Made by a program: the position numbers and the translations under genes. Source: an uncultured bacterium (GTDB lineage: Bacteria > Sysuimicrobiota > Sysuimicrobiia > Sysuimicrobiales > Sysuimicrobiaceae). From it: a DNA stretch of 64,000 nt. The stretch spans positions 128,320 to 192,319 of the forward strand of contig CALIMJ010000013.1 in NCBI GenBank assembly GCA_938028835.1. The letters are read 5' to 3'. Positions 40,659 through 48,047 of the stretch are shown here, piece by piece; within the stretch, counting starts at the first letter, position 1; each line of letters opens with the position of its first letter. The notes under the pieces were generated by a model. It worked only from the letters and a program-made list of their open reading frames with translations. It did not search any database and had not been told where the DNA came from.

Positions 40659-40694
40659 GGAAGCCTGGGGTTCGGGGGCCTTCTGCGCGCGGGC

Positions 40695-41129
40695 CTACGC
40701 GTCCTCCAGCCGGTAGTAGATGGTGTCGAACAGGTGCGGGGCTTCCACGAAGATGCCGTAGGCCGTGGCGGCGGCGGTGCCGTCGGGAAAGGAAAGCCGC
40801 CCCAGGGCGCGGACGGCCCGGCCTGTAACGTCCCCGACCCGCGCTTCCACATAGACCGTGCGGTTCAGGGGGATGGGACGGAGATAGTCCACCTCGACGC
40901 GCAGGGCGGCCGCGCGGTAGCCCGCGCGCCACACGGCGGCGCCCATGGCCTCGTCCAGCACCGCGGCGATCATCCCGCCGTGGGCGTGGCCGGGAGGCCC
41001 CTGCTGCGCCTTTCGGAAGGTTACCTCCCCCACGACCACCCCGTCGTCCCGCTGGTAGAACACCACCCCCAGGCTGCCAGGGGATGTCCCGCAGACCGGG
41101 CACGGTCCGTGTTGGGCGAGCCGCCTCAC
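40695..41129 (-). CDS. Hot-dog fold thioesterase (PaaI/4HBT family)
   Basis: HGGMIAAVLDEAMGAA motif; 144 aa; GTG start 5 nt after an SD that overlaps the S8 stop. Confidence 0.8.
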   Translation of the reverse strand: MRRLAQHGPCPVCGTSPGSLGVVFYQRDDGVVVGEVTFRKAQQGPPGHAHGGMIAAVLDEAMGAAVWRAGYRAAALRVEVDYLRPIPLNRTVYVEARVGDVTGRAVRALGRLSFPDGTAAATAYGIFVEAPHLFDTIYYRLEDA

Positions 41130-41136
41130 GACGCCC

Positions 41137-42534
41137 TCACAGGCGGACCGCGTGCACCCCGTCCCACCGGGAGGGCCGCGCGGCCCGTTCCCACAGCCTG
41201 GCCTTCGCCATCTCAGGCGGAAGCCCCGTACTGAGCAACACCGCCACCACGCCGGTGACCAAGCCTGCCGCGAAGGACGTACCTGACCAACGCACGTAGC
41301 GGGACCCCGCCAACACCGCCCCGCAGTCCAGGATGAGATCCTCGCCCGGGGCTCCGAAGTGCGCTTCGTTGCTGAACCACGCGTACCGGTCTGGCTGCGC
41401 GGCGCTGGTGGCCGCCACCGGGATCACCTGCGTCTGGGCGGCCAGGGTGTCTCCGAAGTGGCCGTAGGCGGCAGGCTCCAGGCAGTTCTCGGGCCGGCCC
41501 TGGGACTGGTTGCCGCTGGCCGCTACCAGCACCGCGCGCTGGCGTGCCAGCTCGTCCACCACCGCCAGGAGCGCGCAGGACTCCACCGTCTCCGGCTGCG
41601 ACCGGTCTACCCCCAGGCTCAGGTTGTACACCATCGGAACGGTGACCAGGGGCGTACGGGTGTCGGGGTGCTGCACGGGGGTGCTTGCCAGCTCGTAGAC
41701 CCACCGGAGGGCGTCCGCCAGCTCGTAGGTGGCGGTGGCGAGTTCGTGGTTCAGCAGCGCCACCAGCACCACCCGGGCACCGGGCGCCATGCGGCGGACC
41801 AGCGACGCCACCGTGGCCCCGTGGTGGCCGCGGTAGTCCCGCATCTGCTCCTCGGTGGCCAGTAGGGGCGACCACGCCCTAGCCCGCCAGCGCTCCGCCA
41901 GCCCGCATGGGGAGCCGCCCGGGTCCCGCAGGGGCGCCCAGACCGGGAAGTTCTCCGGCACCCGTTGCGGCCAGTCCACGTACACATCCACGCAGCCCGG
42001 GTCCAGGCGAGGCAGGCCGTCGGGTCTCAACCCGGGGCCGCTGTCCAGGATGACCACGGTGACGCCCTCCCCGCGCGGCCGGGACTTCGCCCGCTCGTAC
42101 TGCAAAAGCCCGATGTGCTCGAAGGCGGGCTGGCTGGCGAAGTCCGTCTCGTCGGCATCGGGCAGCCGGATGGCGGACTCCGGGGTGGGGCTGCCGTGGG
42201 ACACCTCCGCCTGCCCCCGCACCTGCAAATCCAAGGACGCGTGGGCGGACAGCACGGCCTCGGATAGGCGCCGCACCACGTTGGGTTCCGGTTCGTCGCT
42301 TTCCACGACGAACCGCCGCACCGCCCGCAACCACGGAGGGGGCCTACGGACGGGCGGCAGGGGGAGCGCTTCCCACCGCCACACCGTCCCGGACCGCCGG
42401 GAGACGAACACCGTGCGCGGCCTCGGTGGAGGTACGAGGCACCGGACGGGGTGTGACCGCTCCACGGAGTCCAAAAGGACTTCCGGACAGGCCACCACCA
42501 GGTGGCCGCGCAGGCGGTTCCACGCTTCGCGCAT
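41137..42534 (-). CDS. Subtilisin-like serine peptidase (S8), cytoplasmic (no signal peptide)
   Basis: Asp (VVILDSG), His (HGATVASLV), oxyanion Asn (ASGN), Ser (GTSFAAGLVTG); the SD AAGGAGGG lies 5 nt upstream; the ATG is 1 nt after the CHAT stop. Confidence 0.85.
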   Translation of the reverse strand: MREAWNRLRGHLVVACPEVLLDSVERSHPVRCLVPPPRPRTVFVSRRSGTVWRWEALPLPPVRRPPPWLRAVRRFVVESDEPEPNVVRRLSEAVLSAHASLDLQVRGQAEVSHGSPTPESAIRLPDADETDFASQPAFEHIGLLQYERAKSRPRGEGVTVVILDSGPGLRPDGLPRLDPGCVDVYVDWPQRVPENFPVWAPLRDPGGSPCGLAERWRARAWSPLLATEEQMRDYRGHHGATVASLVRRMAPGARVVLVALLNHELATATYELADALRWVYELASTPVQHPDTRTPLVTVPMVYNLSLGVDRSQPETVESCALLAVVDELARQRAVLVAASGNQSQGRPENCLEPAAYGHFGDTLAAQTQVIPVAATSAAQPDRYAWFSNEAHFGAPGEDLILDCGAVLAGSRYVRWSGTSFAAGLVTGVVAVLLSTGLPPEMAKARLWERAARPSRWDGVHAVRL

Positions 42535-42535
42535 G

Positions 42536-43735
42536 TCACCCTCCTTGAGGGCTTCCGTCTAGTGAACGCGCGCAGCCCGTGTTTTCGACGAGCCGGGCCA
42601 GGGGATCGCCCACCACCACGAAACCGGCCCAGTGCCAGGGGTGCTCCCACCGGGCGCGCAGCTGGAGGCCGGCGCTTCGGAGCGCATCCGGGATCCGAGC
42701 GCCACGGCCCAGATGCTCGTACAGCTGCTGCATGAACTGCGCGGTGGAGCCGTCGTGTACCGGCCACAAGGACACCACCACGGCCCGGGCACCGGCGTGG
42801 AGCCACGCGCGTGTGAAGCCGACCAGCTCGTCCCCGGGCAATACCCTGGAGGCCCCGGTGTCGCAGCCGCTCAGGACCACGATCCCACAGCCCGCCTCGG
42901 CTGCCAGGACGTCCGCCGCGGTGACCAGGCCTGCGGTGAGGTAGATAGCGAACAGCAGCGGTGCCTCGGGCCGGAAACGGCAGTGGGCGGCCACATGCAC
43001 CAGCGCCGCGTCCCGCACGGCGGCCAGGAACTCCGCGGGACTGGGGTTCTCGTACAGACGGCCGCCAACTCGCCGGGCCACCCCGCGGGCTTCTGCTACG
43101 GCCCCAGGGAGCTGGCCCCGCAGGCCGTCGGCCACGCACACCGCGGGGCCACGGGCGACCGGTCGCTTCTGCAGCGGGGGAAGCAGCGAGCCTGCGGGCA
43201 CATACACCACTTCCCATCGGTCCCACACACACGCGTGCCCGTCGGCGAAGGCGTGGAAGGGCAGGCCGTGCAGCAGTCCGAAGGGCGCCACCACGAGACG
43301 GCAGTAGGGGCGGAGTTGTGGCTCCAGCGGGGCCACCAGGAGTGCGTGCAGGTCCTCGAGGACCCGATGGGCCTGACGTACGGCGTGCCGGGCGGGGAGC
43401 TGTCCTGCGGCGTAGGCGCGCAGGCCGTTAGCCCACAGGGCCGCTGCGCGGCCCACTTCCCGCGTGTGGCATGCCCTTTGGCAGATCAGGGTCCTGCCCG
43501 GCTCCAGGACGAAGGCCAGGACGTGGTCTCCGGCCGCGAAGTACTCCACGAGGGCCGTGTCGCCGTCCAGTTCCGGCAAAGCCGGCCTGAGGGTGCGCAT
43601 CAGGAAGGGGGCCTGGGAAGGATATGCGGGATCCTTGCAGCTGGAGCCGCCACAGCACTTCCCGGACTCGGGCTTCCAGGTCCGGTTCGCCCGGTTGCCC
43701 GCGAAGGTGCGGCTCGCCAGGATCCAGCTCCACAA
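42536..43735 (-). CDS. CHAT-domain caspase-like protease segment (C-terminal part of a TPR-CHAT protein)
   Basis: Caspase-type His (HVAAHCRF) and Cys (VVLSGCDTG) dyad about 40 aa apart; [14 protein letters not shown] and LLVAPLEPQL...VVAPFGLLHGLPFHAF are typical CHAT N-lobe motifs. Confidence 0.8.
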   Translation of the reverse strand: MWSWILASRTFAGNRANRTWKPESGKCCGGSSCKDPAYPSQAPFLMRTLRPALPELDGDTALVEYFAAGDHVLAFVLEPGRTLICQRACHTREVGRAAALWANGLRAYAAGQLPARHAVRQAHRVLEDLHALLVAPLEPQLRPYCRLVVAPFGLLHGLPFHAFADGHACVWDRWEVVYVPAGSLLPPLQKRPVARGPAVCVADGLRGQLPGAVAEARGVARRVGGRLYENPSPAEFLAAVRDAALVHVAAHCRFRPEAPLLFAIYLTAGLVTAADVLAAEAGCGIVVLSGCDTGASRVLPGDELVGFTRAWLHAGARAVVVSLWPVHDGSTAQFMQQLYEHLGRGARIPDALRSAGLQLRARWEHPWHWAGFVVVGDPLARLVENTGCARSLDGSPQGG

Positions 43736-45389
43736 AGACCTCGCGTCGCTGGGCCTCCAGAAGGCGGTTCAGCTCCTGCACCAAGCGGACGGCCGCCGGG
43801 CTCCGCGGTCGTACCCGGAGCCCGTGGGAGGCCAGCAGCCACGCCATACCCCTCGACTTGGCGCACTGGACCACCTCCCACGCCCGCGCCCACCGCCCCC
43901 GCGCCCAGAGCTCCAGCACCGAGGCCGCGTACAGCTCGGAGAGCTCCGCGAACACCCCCGAACGCAGGTCCGCAGGCAGCCAGGCCAGCAAGCGGTCGGC
44001 CCACCGGACACCGCTCAGCAGGTGCCCGCTGCGCCTTTGCGGCCGCAGAACGCTGAGCCGGCGGTGGGCTGCAGCGCAAAGCCAGGCCGTGCGGTGCCGG
44101 TGCCCCAAGCGGAGAGCCTCCCGGGCGGCCTGGAGGGCGGTGGCGGTGTCCTGCAGCAGGAGGTGGGCGTCGGAGCGCACCAGCAGGGCCCGGCCCGCAC
44201 CCCCGGGGCTGGCGACCTTCGCCCAGGTCCGGTAGGCTTGGTCCGCCAGCGCTACAGCGGCGGAGGGGTCCCCTTCCCGCAACCGAACGGCCGCCAGCTC
44301 GCAGGCGGCCGCGGCCCTCCACGCCTGGCGCCCGGTTCCCTCTAGGGTCTGCAGGGCTTGCTGGAGGAGGTCCCCAGCGCCCTGGAGGTCTCCCCGGTGC
44401 CGGCACGCCACAGCAGCCAGGTAGCGGGCACGGGCCGCTTCGGCCACGAACCCCGCCGCGTCCAGCTCCTGCGCCAGGCGGCGCCCTTCGCGGATCACGC
44501 GCTCCGCCTGTCCCAGGTACAGGCGACACTCCAGAGCGAACAGCCGGTAGGCGGCTCCCGCGGCCGGGACGCCAGCCTCCCGGTAGCGGTCTGCCACCTC
44601 CTCGAAGGCCTGCAGGGCGTGCGCGTACCGGCCCTGACCCAAGTCTGACCAGGCGGTGGCCGCGGCTGACCGCAGGGCCAGGAGGGAGCTGCCGGTAGCC
44701 TCCGCACACCGGGTGGCTTCTTGCAGGGCTCGAGCCGCCTCCTCGTGGCGGCCCAGCTGCGCCAGCAGCAGCCCCGCGTTGTGCTGCACCACCGCTAGGT
44801 CGAGGTCGGCGGACTCCCCGAGGGCCCGGAACCGGTCAGCCGCTTGCGCGTACGCGAGGAGGGCTGCCTCCGTGTCCCCCAGGTACTGGAGCAGGGTGGC
44901 GCGCTGTGCCCGCACGCGGGCCGCGAACAGGCAGGCTCCCGGGTCGGCGGCGAGCACCGGCTCGATGAGGTCCGCCAGCTCCAACGCCTCACGGTAGCGG
45001 CCCTGCCGGAACAGCACGCCGATGCGGCCTACCCCGCACCGTGCGGCGAGAGTGGGCTGGCTGCAGGCCTCGGCCAGCCGCCGCGCGGCCTCGTAGGCTT
45101 CGTGGGCTTCCTCCAACCGCTCGCACCAGAGCAACGCGTTGGCCACCGCCAGGCGCGCCACCACCCGGGCGGCTGGGTCCGCTCCGGCGTCCGCGTAGTC
45201 TGCCAGTTCCCGCGCCCGCTTCAAGGCCTGCTGCGGTTGCCGGTGGGCCAGGCGGTCCACCAGGTCCTTGAGGCGTTCGGCCACCTCCACGCAGGGGGCT
45301 CCAAAGCGCTCCCGCAGGAAGCGCACGGGGCCTCCGCGGGACGCGGCTTCGGCCCACGCTGCCAGCACGCTGGCGCCTTCGGGGGTCAC
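43428..45389 (-). CDS. TPR-repeat segment (N-terminal part of the TPR-CHAT protein; frame breaks near 43607-43611)
   Basis: About 590 aa of tandem Ala/Leu-rich TPR-like helices; it ends with the KSR...LL motif that normally precedes a CHAT domain; the last ~60 codons of the ORF overlap the CHAT ORF in another frame. Confidence 0.7.
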
Positions 45390-45460
45390 GGCGGCGGTGT
45401 TCTTGGACGGCCTGTCCGGTTCCTGCTATGGTGGACGCGAGCTGCGAGCTGGAGGAGGGC

Positions 45461-47540: not shown

Positions 47541-48047
47541 CTAGGCTTCGGTCACCCGCAGCCACGAGGCCACAAGCGCCCCGTGGAGCACGTGGGCCCC
47601 AAGCGCCAGCCACGGCATCCCCCCGCCAGCCAGCTTGGAGCCGAGGATCCCCGCTCCTGCAAGGGGGAACGTCACGAACAGGGTCAGGGGCCAGACCAGC
47701 AGGGCATACAGCGCCCCGCACAGCCAGGGACGGCGCCGCAGCGCGGCAGCGCGGTACAGGACGGGGGCCACCGCCACGCCGTACACGTACCCGTAGCCCG
47801 GCCCGGCAAGCAGCAGGAGCAGGAGGCTTACCGCGAAAGCCCACCGGGTCTGGTCGACGACCAGGTTGTCCCACAGGGCCAGGAACCAGCGCTGGACCAG
47901 CCCCGCACCTTCCGGGTGCCACACCGCGCGACCCAGTCCCCACAGCAACACCCCCAGGCAGGCCAGGGCCGTGACCAGGGTGGCGGCCACCGCGACCCGG
48001 AAGGCATGACGGCCGGAGCAGGCGGTCCACGTGTCCGTGTTCAACAC
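47541..48047 (-). CDS. Hypothetical small integral membrane protein
   Basis: The C-terminal 168 codons of ORF 47541..48512 encode four or five TM helices; the GTG start was chosen at the onset of hydrophobicity. Confidence 0.45.
   Translation of the reverse strand: MLNTDTWTACSGRHAFRVAVAATLVTALACLGVLLWGLGRAVWHPEGAGLVQRWFLALWDNLVVDQTRWAFAVSLLLLLLAGPGYGYVYGVAVAPVLYRAAALRRRPWLCGALYALLVWPLTLFVTFPLAGAGILGSKLAGGGMPWLALGAHVLHGALVASWLRVTEA

What the first reader, a model, noticed from the sequence alone, without database searches (positions are those of the whole stretch)
40695..45389. Three-gene operon: TPR-CHAT caspase-like protease, cytoplasmic S8 subtilase and hot-dog thioesterase
On the minus strand, a ~950-aa TPR-CHAT protein (intact His/Cys dyad HVAAHCRF / LSGCDTG) is followed by a signal-peptide-less subtilase. 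The subtilase ATG sits 1 nt after the CHAT stop and is preceded by an AAGGAGGG SD that lies inside the CHAT coding sequence. A PaaI-type thioesterase then starts 5 nt after an SD overlapping the S8 stop. Tandem repeat-fused caspase-like (CHAT) and subtilase proteases are the hallmark regulatory modules of bacterial programmed-cell-death and defence systems (gasdermin operons, type III-E Craspase, some CBASS and Avs loci). Here no recognisable effector (gasdermin, nuclease, TIR or pore former) is encoded; the only partner is a small thioesterase. This could be a proteolytic-cascade system with an undescribed effector or substrate, or a housekeeping proteolytic regulator.
Basis: partly seen in the sequence, partly recalled or inferred. 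Interest (0 to 1): 0.8.

Follow-up and report, generated by a model that had tools for sequence, protein, structure and literature searches.

The report
Paired CHAT and subtilase protease module
Two proteases that are always encoded side by side, a separase-like TPR-CHAT enzyme and a cytoplasmic subtilase that keeps its inhibitory propeptide, form a stripped-down copy of a widespread, untested sigma-factor signalling cassette. The neighbouring thioesterase is a bystander, and in this copy the CHAT gene carries a frameshift.

Summary
The genes and their tight junctions are real, but two parts of the observation fail.

(1) In this window the TPR-CHAT gene is not one ~950-aa ORF. An extra A at 43635/43636 splits it into a TPR ORF and a CHAT ORF. 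A 99.96%-identical assembly and all orthologues are intact.

(2) The thioesterase is not a conserved partner. It is intact in only one other locus, fragmentary or deleted in three, and absent from the rest.

The CHAT→S8 pair itself is strongly conserved. It occurs in every Sysuimicrobiaceae locus examined, always next to transketolase. Both catalytic sites are invariant and dN/dS is about 0.2-0.3.

Outside this lineage, the nearest CHAT and S8 relatives (Chloroflexota and soil metagenomes) almost always sit in a four-gene cassette. The cassette is ECF sigma factor, soluble zinc-finger anti-sigma-like protein, TPR-CHAT and S8. It matches the published but untested "ECF54" gene context.

The window lineage lacks the sigma and anti-sigma genes. 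The S8 N-terminus folds like a subtilisin propeptide, so the protein looks like a zymogen.

Best reading: a regulatory two-protease cascade, not a mobile defence island. This is a new variant of a known kind, of moderate interest.

The parts
43636..45389 (-). TPR-CHAT gene, N-terminal part: a TPR solenoid of about 27 helices. GTG start at 45389. This frame runs on to a stop at 43428 because of the frameshift.
   Evidence: ORF list. TPR_12 7e-19. N-terminal residues are conserved in 7 orthologues, including invariant P3, A11 and W12. The AF2 model of the intact 929-aa form has helices over aa 1-577.
43635..43636 (-). Frameshift site: AA here, a single A in the 99.96%-identical contig L001. The 1-nt insertion shifts the frame by +1.
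   Evidence: blastn alignment of window versus L001. Deleting one base restores a 950-aa ORF that is 99.9% identical to L001.
42536..43633 (-). TPR-CHAT gene, C-terminal part: linker plus CHAT caspase-like protease domain, stop TGA at 42538-42536. Catalytic His at 42983-42985 and Cys at 42863-42865.
   Evidence: PF12770 1.6e-49. H802 and C842 are invariant in orthologues and in the 30-sequence alignment. Coordinates. Fold matches Csx29, separase and DdvA.
42539..42546 (-). Shine-Dalgarno AAGGAGGG for the S8 gene, inside the end of the CHAT coding sequence. Suggests translational coupling.
   Evidence: Sequence. Tight junctions recur in orthologues, from a 21-nt gap to an overlap of about 40-50 nt.
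42214..42534 (-). S8 gene, aa 1-107: propeptide-like domain (beta-alpha-beta-beta-beta-beta-alpha-beta) with no signal peptide.
42160..42213 (-). S8 gene, aa 108-125: flexible propeptide/catalytic-domain linker QAEVSHGSPTPESAIRLP. Candidate activation-cleavage site.
   Evidence: pLDDT below 50 for aa 109-116. H113, G114, P116 and P118 are invariant in 22 family members. P116 and P118 are at least 90% conserved across the wider subfamily, where several members carry 3-4 tandem 7-residue repeats at this position.
41137..42159 (-). S8 gene, catalytic domain. D164 (42043-42045), H238 (41821-41823), oxyanion N342 (41509-41511), S420 (41275-41277).
   Evidence: PF00082 7.7e-15. The triad and Asn are invariant in alignments A1 and A3. 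Coordinates.
40695..41129 (-). Hot-dog (4HBT / PaaI-like) thioesterase, 144 aa. A neighbouring accessory gene, not part of the conserved module.
   Evidence: 4HBT 1.5e-11. The PaaI equivalog model scores 31.7 bits against a cutoff of 118.9. Intact only here and in L022; fragments in L002 and L021; 373 nt deleted in L001; absent in L003-L006, L023, L028, L007 and L012.

Best explanation
The locus encodes a conserved two-protease module. One partner is a cytoplasmic separase/Craspase-type TPR-CHAT cysteine protease. The other, translationally coupled to it, is a cytoplasmic subtilase that retains a subtilisin-type propeptide, so it is a zymogen.

The pair is a reduced descendant of a widespread four-gene cassette: ECF sigma factor, soluble zinc-finger anti-sigma-like protein with a beta-sandwich C-terminus ('Y'), TPR-CHAT and S8. 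This matches the published 'ECF54' gene context. In Sysuimicrobiaceae the sigma and Y genes are missing from the locus, and the pair is fixed in the core chromosome next to tkt.

Proposed mechanism (inferred, not shown). The TPR solenoid senses a protein or ligand signal and switches on the CHAT dyad. CHAT then cleaves the exposed, invariant propeptide linker of the S8 (aa ~108-125), or otherwise releases the propeptide. The activated S8 degrades a regulatory target. In the ancestral cassette the target would be the anti-sigma-like protein; in this lineage it is unknown.

What is shown: the domain identities, the invariant catalytic residues, the adjacency across phyla, the absence of sigma and Y here, and the zymogen-like fold.

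The thioesterase is an unrelated accessory neighbour. In this particular assembly the CHAT gene carries a 1-nt insertion. If that insertion is real, the module is inactivated in this strain.
For: - Domains.
- Intact 929/950-aa CHAT in the near-identical contig L001.
- tkt<- ->CHAT->S8 synteny in every Sysuimicrobiota locus: 7 genome loci, L012/13, L021-28.
- Tight CHAT/S8 junctions.
- Invariant D/H/N/S in S8 and H/C in CHAT.
- dN/dS is 0.22-0.32 for the proteases against 0.10-0.19 for the flanks, with similar dS.
- The nearest S8 relatives (Chloroflexota P0155, P0160, P0154; 36-39% identity; no signal peptide) lie directly downstream of 972-aa TPR-CHAT genes, which are preceded by a zf-HC2 protein and a divergent ECF sigma.
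- The nearest CHAT outgroups show the order sigma-Y-CHAT-S8.
- Among 19 S8-selected metagenome loci with at least 3 kb of flank on each side, 18 have CHAT, 19 have a sigma and 17 have Y. None of the 18 Sysuimicrobiota loci, nor the 64-kb window, has a sigma or Y.
- The S8 model resembles unprocessed pro-subtilisins.
- The CHAT model resembles Csx29, separase and DdvA.
- Literature: the ECF54 context holds carboxypeptidase-, subtilase- and CHAT-domain proteins, and proteolytic regulation is proposed but untested (PMC8999054). One CHAT protease activating a second protease is documented for SAVED-CHAT and PCaspase.
Against: - The direction of the cascade, and whether CHAT touches the S8 at all, is pure inference. 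No complex model or cleavage-site evidence was obtained.
- In several sigma-Y-CHAT-S8 cassettes the S8 has a signal or lipoprotein N-terminus while CHAT and Y are cytoplasmic. Direct CHAT-to-S8 cleavage cannot be general there, and the S8 may instead be an output of the sigma factor.
- No propeptide family matches at sequence level.
- The sigma and Y genes could sit elsewhere in the genome, which could not be searched. In that case 'reduced' would be wrong.
- The frameshift in this window means the module may be non-functional here.
- ECF54 membership of the outgroup sigma factors was not tested with ECF-group models.
Confidence: 0.55

Rival explanations
1. Anti-phage or abortive-infection protease cascade in which the cytoplasmic S8 zymogen is itself the effector. 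A phage cue sensed by the TPR domain activates CHAT. CHAT unleashes the subtilase, which degrades the proteome and kills or arrests the cell. No separate effector gene is needed.
For: - The TPR-CHAT fold is closest to Csx29 of Craspase.
- There are weak PADLOC hits to Borvo BovA (2e-6) and a defence-associated subtilase (1e-6).
- The pair evolves 2-3 times faster than its flanks.
- A cytoplasmic subtilase with a full propeptide is what a latent toxic effector would look like.
- CHAT-to-second-protease cascades exist in defence, and DdvA/DdvS shows TPR-CHAT with a sigma factor controlling defence islands.
Against: - The chromosomal position between housekeeping genes is fixed across a whole family, and dS equals that of the flanks.
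- No mobile-element or defence-island neighbours were seen.
- dN/dS is well below 1, with no sign of diversifying selection.
- PADLOC and Csx29 scores are far below family level.
- The relatives are wired to sigma / anti-sigma pairs, which suggests transcriptional signalling rather than killing.
Confidence: 0.2
2. CHAT and S8 are functionally linked but not as a cascade. They act in parallel or sequentially on a common third protein, as site-1 and site-2 cuts act on an anti-sigma factor. Alternatively the S8 is simply a co-expressed output, and it matures by ordinary autoprocessing.
For: - In several cassettes the S8 is exported while CHAT and Y are cytoplasmic. That fits 'output' or a separate compartment better than direct activation.
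- The Y proteins carry a highly conserved AG[VLA]R[GS] motif just before the beta-sandwich domain. This could be a protease site.
- Subtilases normally autoprocess (established knowledge of family S8).
Against: - In the window's own subfamily (Sysuimicrobiota and Chloroflexota) both proteins are cytoplasmic and translationally coupled.
- The propeptide linker is invariant and disordered, and in some members is tandemly repeated. This looks like a site presented to another protease.
- No third conserved gene exists in the Sysuimicrobiota locus.
Confidence: 0.2
3. Three-gene operon in which the PaaI-like thioesterase is the functional partner or effector of the two proteases.
For: - The thioesterase is on the same strand, with a 7-nt gap after the S8 stop.
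- An intact homologue sits in the same position in L022.
Against: - It is absent from most orthologous loci, frameshifted or fragmentary in L002 and L021, and deleted in the 99.96%-identical L001.
- It never appears in the Chloroflexota or other cassettes.
- The convergent neighbour is an acyl-CoA synthetase, which offers a more natural metabolic link.
Confidence: 0.03
4. Decaying remnant. After the sigma and anti-sigma genes were lost, the pair has no function in this lineage and is being pseudogenised. The frameshift in this window is one step in that decay.
For: - There is a frameshift in this window.
- Sigma and Y are absent.
- Constraint is relaxed relative to the flanks.
- The adjacent thioesterase is visibly decaying.
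Against: - Full-length CHAT ORFs are present in every other locus long enough to hold the gene.
- Catalytic residues are invariant down to 46% (CHAT) and 47% (S8) identity.
- dN/dS is 0.2-0.3, not about 1.
- The tight junction is preserved.
Confidence: 0.07

Closest known systems
ECF54-type sigma factor gene context (Huang et al. 2015; Casas-Pastor et al. 2021; reviewed in PMC8999054)
   Same: The published context has conserved neighbours with carboxypeptidase(-regulatory), subtilase and CHAT domains, and proposes control by proteolysis. This is the same composition I found around the nearest CHAT and S8 relatives: sigma, Y with a CarboxypepD_reg-like C-terminus, TPR-CHAT and S8.
   Different: The window lineage has no sigma and no Y gene in the locus or anywhere in 64 kb. 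ECF54 was defined in Actinobacteria, whereas these loci are Sysuimicrobiota, Chloroflexota and unassigned metagenome contigs. I could not test ECF-group membership of the sigma factors. The mechanism of ECF54 regulation has never been tested experimentally.
DdvA-DdvS of Myxococcus xanthus (anti-sigma fused to a TPR-CHAT domain; PDB 8rot)
   Same: [quoted passage not shown] It is a structural hit to the window's CHAT model at 1.2e-12.
   Different: DdvA is one transmembrane polypeptide with a periplasmic TPR-CHAT, and no subtilase is involved. Here CHAT is a separate cytoplasmic protein, is paired with an S8, and lacks any anti-sigma partner.
Craspase: Csx29 TPR-CHAT of type III-E CRISPR-Cas (with Csx30 and RpoE)
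   Same: It is the best structural match (8eey_B, 8e-16). It is a TPR-CHAT switched on allosterically to cut a regulatory protein. From my own knowledge of Strecker et al. 2022 (PMC10028731), that protein, Csx30, controls an ECF-type sigma factor.
   Different: The Csx29 family model scores 24.9 bits against a cutoff of 300. No Cas7-11 or other cas genes appear among the genes called for the ~21-kb L001 stretch. No subtilase partner is known for Craspase.
SAVED-CHAT to PCaspase cascade (type III-B / CBASS, Haliangium ochraceum)
   Same: It is a precedent for a bacterial CHAT protease that specifically cleaves and activates a second protease, which then cuts many targets including a putative sigma factor.
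   Different: The sensor is SAVED (cyclic nucleotide), not TPR. The second protease is a caspase, not a subtilase. That system lies in a defence locus, whereas this pair lies in core-genome synteny.
Pro-subtilisins and intracellular or retained-propeptide subtilases (pro-subtilisin E 3whi, PCSK9, Tk-SP, Clostridium Csp proteases, Bacillus ISPs)
   Different: Those enzymes mature by autoprocessing and are mostly secreted. ISPs have only a short N-terminal extension. This one is cytoplasmic with a full propeptide and an invariant HGSPTP linker, and is genetically tied to a CHAT protease. Sequence identity is under 25%.
Bacterial gasdermin operons and Borvo (defence systems that use CHAT or subtilase proteases)
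   Same: They use CHAT or subtilase proteases as activating modules. There are weak PADLOC hits to BovA and to a defence subtilase.
   Different: No gasdermin or other effector is present. The hits are partial and marginal (25-26 bits). The genomic context is not a defence island.

Membership tests
CHAT domain proteases (Pfam PF12770, clan CD) | Match to the CHAT profile above the gathering score | tested here: met
   169.3 bits against a cutoff of 24, covering 2-289 of 289 profile positions
CHAT domain proteases (Pfam PF12770, clan CD) | Catalytic His-Cys dyad present and conserved | tested here: met
   HVAAHCRF and LSGCDTG are present. H802 and C842 are invariant in 7 orthologues and in the 30-sequence alignment.
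CHAT domain proteases (Pfam PF12770, clan CD) | Uninterrupted coding sequence in this window | tested here: not met
   A 1-nt insertion at 43635/43636 splits the gene. It is intact in L001 and in all orthologues.
Separase/Craspase-type TPR-CHAT architecture | N-terminal TPR solenoid fused to a C-terminal CHAT fold, structurally similar to Csx29 and separase | tested here: met
   AF2 model with pLDDT 85. Foldseek top hits are Csx29 at 8e-16, human separase at 2e-15 and DdvA at 1e-12.
Csx29 (type III-E Craspase protease) | Score above the NCBIfam NF041237 cutoff | tested here: not met
   24.9 bits against a cutoff of 300
Csx29 (type III-E Craspase protease) | Adjacent Cas7-11/gRAMP, csx30 and csx31 | tested here: not met
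   None of the genes called for the ~21-kb L001 stretch (about 7 kb upstream of CHAT to 10 kb downstream of S8) is cas-like. The window was not scanned for CRISPR repeat arrays.
Subtilases (Pfam PF00082, family S8) | Profile match plus the Asp-His-Ser triad and oxyanion Asn | tested here: met
   55.4 bits against a cutoff of 21.8. D164, H238, N342 and S420 are invariant.
Subtilase zymogens with I9-type propeptide | Sequence match to a propeptide family (Inhibitor_I9, Fervidolysin_NPro) | tested here: not met
   No propeptide family was found even at E<=10 for aa 1-132. The L016 outgroup S8 does match Fervidolysin_NPro.
Subtilase zymogens with I9-type propeptide | N-terminal alpha/beta domain that superposes on the propeptide of unprocessed pro-subtilases | tested here: met
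Subtilase zymogens with I9-type propeptide | Propeptide actually inhibits the enzyme and is removed on activation | not testable with these tools
   Needs biochemistry
ECF54-type sigma / CHAT / subtilase cassette | CHAT and S8 genes adjacent | tested here: met
   1-nt gap in the window. Adjacent in all Sysuimicrobiota loci, and in 18 of 19 S8-selected metagenome loci with at least 3 kb of flank on each side.
ECF54-type sigma / CHAT / subtilase cassette | ECF sigma factor gene in the cassette | tested here: not met
   No hit to the sigma or X profiles in the 64-kb window at E<=1, and none in 18 Sysuimicrobiota loci at E<=1e-4. The rest of the genome was not searchable.
ECF54-type sigma / CHAT / subtilase cassette | Protein with a zf-HC2 / CarboxypepD_reg-like domain ('Y') in the cassette | tested here: not met
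   No hit in the window or in Sysuimicrobiota loci. Present in 17 of 19 S8-selected outgroup loci with at least 3 kb of flank on each side.
ECF54-type sigma / CHAT / subtilase cassette | The sigma factors of the outgroup cassettes classify as ECF group 54 | not tested
   No ECF-group models were available. The inference rests only on the matching context description.
Borvo (BovA) defence system | Full-length match to the BovA model | tested here: not met
   25 bits, covering only profile positions 531-671 of 711, which is the shared CHAT core
Bacterial gasdermin system | Gasdermin gene next to the protease | tested here: not met
   The neighbours are transketolase, thioesterase and acyl-CoA synthetase
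PaaI / hot-dog thioesterase | 4HBT fold profile match | tested here: met
   PF03061 scores 44.8 bits against a cutoff of 20.6
PaaI / hot-dog thioesterase | Equivalog-level match to PaaI (TIGR02286) | tested here: not met
   31.7 bits against a cutoff of 118.9

The most novel reading that the evidence does not exclude
The TPR-CHAT / pro-subtilase pair is a self-contained, caspase-cascade-like executioner. A separase-like initiator protease converts a latent cytoplasmic subtilase into an active, broadly acting protease that drives dormancy or cell death. On this reading the sigma / anti-sigma genes of the ancestral cassette are only one of several outputs. The Sysuimicrobiaceae version would then be the minimal form of a bacterial two-tier protease cascade that mixes a clan CD and a clan SB enzyme, a combination with no characterised example.
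Probability: 0.15. Interest if true: 0.75.

Novelty: new variant of a known kind. Interest (0 to 1): 0.45.

Why it matters
The four-gene cassette (ECF sigma, soluble zinc-finger anti-sigma-like protein, TPR-CHAT, subtilase) turned up in nearly every locus I could examine around relatives of these genes, across several phyla. Yet it is known only as a line in ECF-sigma classifications ('ECF54 context'), and no experiment has addressed it.

The Sysuimicrobiaceae pair is a natural minimal version that keeps only the two proteases. All of its components are cytoplasmic. That makes it a clean system for asking whether a separase-like CHAT protease activates a subtilase zymogen, a cross-clan protease cascade not yet demonstrated in bacteria.

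The thioesterase is not an effector. The module is not in a defence island. The copy in this window is frameshifted.

Tried and rejected
- **Thioesterase as system component: rejected.** It is patchy, fragmentary or deleted in orthologous loci.
- **Programmed +1 frameshift: rejected.** All orthologues and the 99.96%-identical contig lack the extra base and read straight through.
- **Known defence-system membership: rejected.** PADLOC gives only marginal hits to the CHAT core and the S8 core, and the Csx29 model scores far below its cutoff.
- **Sequence-level propeptide family for the S8 N-terminus:** none found. Only fold evidence supports it.
- **The conserved 168-aa ORF upstream of tkt as a hidden sigma or anti-sigma:** no Pfam or NCBIfam match, and no hit with the sigma, X or Y profiles.
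- **A shared 'VRG' cleavage motif between the S8 propeptide end and the Y proteins:** dropped, because it is not conserved within the S8 family (for example VLGQ in P0012, VRAH in P0023).
- **Consensus promoter and terminator scan:** nothing found. This is uninformative in a 72% GC genome.
- **First metagenome scan with the 26-sequence alignment:** failed because no stretch was conserved enough. It was redone with 11 sequences.
- **Exact-sequence look-up of the thioesterase:** found nothing on record. I therefore could not tell which assemblies combine the thioesterase with the frameshift.
- **Huang et al. 2015 and the Casas-Pastor supplements:** not held. The ECF54 context is therefore cited second-hand from PMC8999054.

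Full report
**1. What is in the sequence**

The window is about 72% GC here. On the minus strand between 45389 and 40695 there are four long ORFs, not three:
- 45389..43428 (653 aa), with TPR repeats (TPR_12, 7e-19).
- 43735..42536 (399 aa), with a full-length CHAT domain (PF12770, 1.6e-49).
- 42534..41137 (465 aa), Peptidase_S8 (7.7e-15, matching only aa 233-451).
- 41129..40695 (144 aa), a 4HBT hot-dog thioesterase (1.5e-11).

The first two ORFs overlap in different frames. A Logan contig (L001) encodes an S8 protein identical to the window's and is 99.96% identical to the window in DNA. It carries a single 929/950-aa TPR-CHAT gene. The only indel in 11.5 kb is one extra A in the window at 43635/43636. 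Removing that base gives a 950-aa ORF that is 99.9% identical to L001.

I cannot tell a real mutation from an assembly error.

- AAGGAGGG, then TGA, then one base, then the ATG of S8.
- The S8 TGA, then 7 nt, then the GTG of the thioesterase.

No consensus promoter or terminator was found.

**2. Lineage and conservation of the pair**

S8 homologues at family level are few. There are 27 in the 5.8-billion-sequence database, all at or above 47% identity, and then a gap down to 50 bits.

Seven species genomes carry the gene. All are hot-spring or hydrothermal MAGs labelled Armatimonadota or Candidatus Sysuimicrobiota, including Tepidifontimicrobium thermophilum (88%) and Sysuimicrobium calidum (56%). 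Both genera belong to the family Sysuimicrobiaceae (PMC11604079).

In every locus the order is transketolase (divergent), TPR-CHAT, S8. An acyl-CoA synthetase lies convergent downstream in most loci, and EF-P in the deepest branch.

The CHAT/S8 junction ranges from a 21-nt gap to an overlap of about 40-50 nt.

Catalytic residues are invariant: S8 D164, H238, N342 and S420, and CHAT H802 and C842.

Pairwise dN/dS against L001 is 0.27-0.32 for CHAT at 65-88% identity (0.42 for the most divergent pair, L005) and 0.22-0.31 for S8. The flanks give 0.10-0.14 for tkt and 0.16-0.19 for the synthetase. dS is similar across all four genes. The pair is therefore vertically inherited and under purifying selection, though more relaxed than its housekeeping neighbours.

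**3. The thioesterase is a bystander**

L001 lacks window positions 40670-41042, which is most of the gene.

Only one other locus (L022) has an intact homologue, at 80% identity. L002 and L021 retain fragments with frame changes. L003-L006, L023, L028, L007 and L012 have none, and in several of them the S8 and synthetase genes are only 15-190 nt apart.

The protein scores below the PaaI equivalog cutoff. It never occurs in the related cassettes of other phyla.

**4. What the two proteases look like**

*S8.* The AF2 model (pLDDT 78.5, pTM 0.87) has three parts. There is an N-terminal alpha/beta domain (aa 6-107), a disordered linker (aa 109-116, pLDDT below 50), and the catalytic domain.

The N-terminus is therefore a subtilisin-type propeptide by fold, although no propeptide family matches by sequence.

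The linker carries the invariant motif H113-G114-x-P116-x-P118. In the wider subfamily P116 and P118 stay at least 90% conserved, and several Chloroflexota members have 3-4 tandem 7-residue repeats at exactly this position. There is no signal peptide or TM segment.

*TPR-CHAT.* The AF2 model of the intact allele (pLDDT 85) is a solenoid of about 27 helices followed by the CHAT fold. Its best structural matches are Csx29 of Craspase, human separase and the anti-sigma factor DdvA. It is nevertheless not a Csx29 family member by sequence (24.9 bits against a cutoff of 300).

**5. The wider context: a four-gene cassette**

An exhaustive HMMER search with the S8 family profile found a wider subfamily of 500-570-aa proteins at 180-273 bits.

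Three of these could be placed on contigs. They come from a Chloroflexota MAG, an Ardenticatenaceae MAG and one unassigned contig. All three lie directly downstream of a TPR-CHAT gene. Like the window's S8, they lack signal peptides and share the same N-terminal start.

In the two loci with upstream flank, a 240-261-aa zf-HC2 protein and a ~230-aa protein lie upstream of CHAT. The ~230-aa protein is a divergent ECF sigma (sigma70-ECF 1.3e-4). The zf-HC2 protein matches anti-sigma models at 1e-8.

Independently, four of the five nearest non-orthologous TPR-CHAT proteins looked up (220-300 bits) sit in the order sigma (Sigma70_r2/r4), a 170-220-aa protein, CHAT, S8. The contig of the fifth ends at its CHAT gene. 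One of the 170-220-aa proteins gives a weak CarboxypepD_reg hit.

A metagenome scan seeded only with S8 patterns returned 80 loci. I searched them with profiles built here. Of the 19 non-Sysuimicrobiota loci with at least 3 kb on both sides of the S8 gene:
- 18 have a CHAT gene within 5 kb.
- 19 have an ECF sigma.
- 17 have the zf-HC2 / beta-sandwich protein 'Y'.

Several gene orders occur. A few of these loci are near-duplicates.

None of the 18 Sysuimicrobiota loci, nor the 64-kb window, has a sigma or Y hit.

The Y proteins have no TM segment. They share a striking AG[VLA]R[GS] motif just before the beta-sandwich.

In some cassettes the S8 has a signal or lipoprotein N-terminus.

**6. Relation to the literature**

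A review of non-canonical ECF sigma factors covers group ECF54. It reports conserved neighbours with carboxypeptidase, subtilase and CHAT domains. From this it has been proposed that the group is regulated by proteolysis, and no experiment is cited (PMC8999054). Casas-Pastor et al. list ECF54 among groups without a clear regulator.

The composition matches the cassette found here. I could not test ECF-group membership, and the primary description (Huang et al. 2015) is not held.

Two characterised systems link TPR-CHAT to sigma / anti-sigma control:
- DdvA-DdvS, an anti-sigma fused to a periplasmic TPR-CHAT.
- Craspase-Csx30-RpoE, from my own knowledge of PMC10028731.

A CHAT protease that activates a second protease is documented for SAVED-CHAT and PCaspase. 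No paper pairing TPR-CHAT with a subtilisin was found.

**7. Interpretation**

Shown:
- A conserved, coupled, catalytically intact CHAT/pro-S8 pair.
- Descent from, or close kinship with, a sigma / anti-sigma / CHAT / S8 cassette.
- Absence of sigma and Y at this locus.
- A zymogen-like S8.
- Core-genome synteny rather than a mobile context.

Inferred:
- The TPR domain is the sensor.
- CHAT removes or releases the S8 propeptide at the invariant linker.
- The S8 then degrades a regulatory target.

The main caveat is that S8 is exported in some cassettes. The S8 may therefore be an output rather than a link in a cascade, and the direct CHAT-to-S8 step may be specific to the cytoplasmic subfamily, or wrong.

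A defence or abortive-infection role, with the S8 itself as effector, is not excluded. Nothing in the context favours it.

**8. Verdict**

However, it is a regulatory module related to an ECF-sigma cassette rather than a defence system with a missing effector.

Novelty: a new, sigma-less and all-cytoplasmic variant of a cassette known only from bioinformatic context.

Interest is moderate. The cassette is widespread and mechanistically untouched, and this minimal pair would be a good entry point.

Noticed in passing
window 40670-41042 versus L001 11492: A 373-nt deletion in the 99.96%-identical Logan contig removes most of the thioesterase gene, with only 1 nt of microhomology at the junction. 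The contig with the intact CHAT lacks the thioesterase, and the window has the thioesterase but a frameshifted CHAT. With only two contigs this may be coincidence.
   Followed up: partly
L018 3199-3984, L019 3356-4078, L014 5250-6008 and about 35 further loci (L037-L100): The soluble zf-HC2 / beta-sandwich 'Y' proteins of the sigma-Y-CHAT-S8 cassettes share a near-universal motif, DS-x(7-9)-AG[VLA]R[GS], immediately before the beta-sandwich domain. This is a candidate protease cleavage site after Arg. None has a TM segment, so they would be cytoplasmic anti-sigma factors.
   Followed up: partly
P0155 (L019 7001-8617), P0162, P0163, P0166, P0170: Chloroflexota-type S8 homologues carry 3-4 tandem repeats of about 7 residues (PEHVYNS, SPFGSSD, PEEGDPA, PAPNEGN, GPEQGAP) in the propeptide/catalytic-domain linker. 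This is the position of the invariant HGSPTP in the window's family.
   Followed up: no
L020 7001-8344 (P0153, contig ERZ511475 NODE_84): A 447-aa paralogue is 41% identical to the window's S8 over aa 35-465. The oxyanion Asn is replaced (AAGHRA instead of ASGNQS). It has no CHAT neighbour and sits among type I restriction-modification, Mor-like, glucosaminidase and DnaB genes, which looks like a prophage or mobile element.
   Followed up: partly
window 45390-45427: Only 38 nt separate the GTG start of TPR-CHAT (45389) from the ATG of the divergent transketolase gene (45428). Promoters must therefore overlap coding sequence. An alternative GTG at 45326 has a better Shine-Dalgarno (GGAGG) and was used by the gene caller (929 aa). 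However, residues upstream of it are conserved in orthologues.
   Followed up: partly
window 47541-48047 (minus strand; L001 4489-4995): A 168-aa ORF with no Pfam or NCBIfam match lies just beyond transketolase and is conserved in position even in the deepest Sysuimicrobiota branch (169 aa in L012). Its function is unknown.
   Followed up: partly
L009, L010, L015, L016 (S8 genes): In some sigma-Y-CHAT-S8 cassettes the S8 has a signal or lipoprotein-type N-terminus while CHAT and Y look cytoplasmic. The cassette therefore comes in at least two topological versions: S8 exported, or S8 cytoplasmic as in the window.
   Followed up: partly
window 1-64000: The whole 64-kb window has no tRNA genes and no Rfam family at gathering threshold.
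   Followed up: yes
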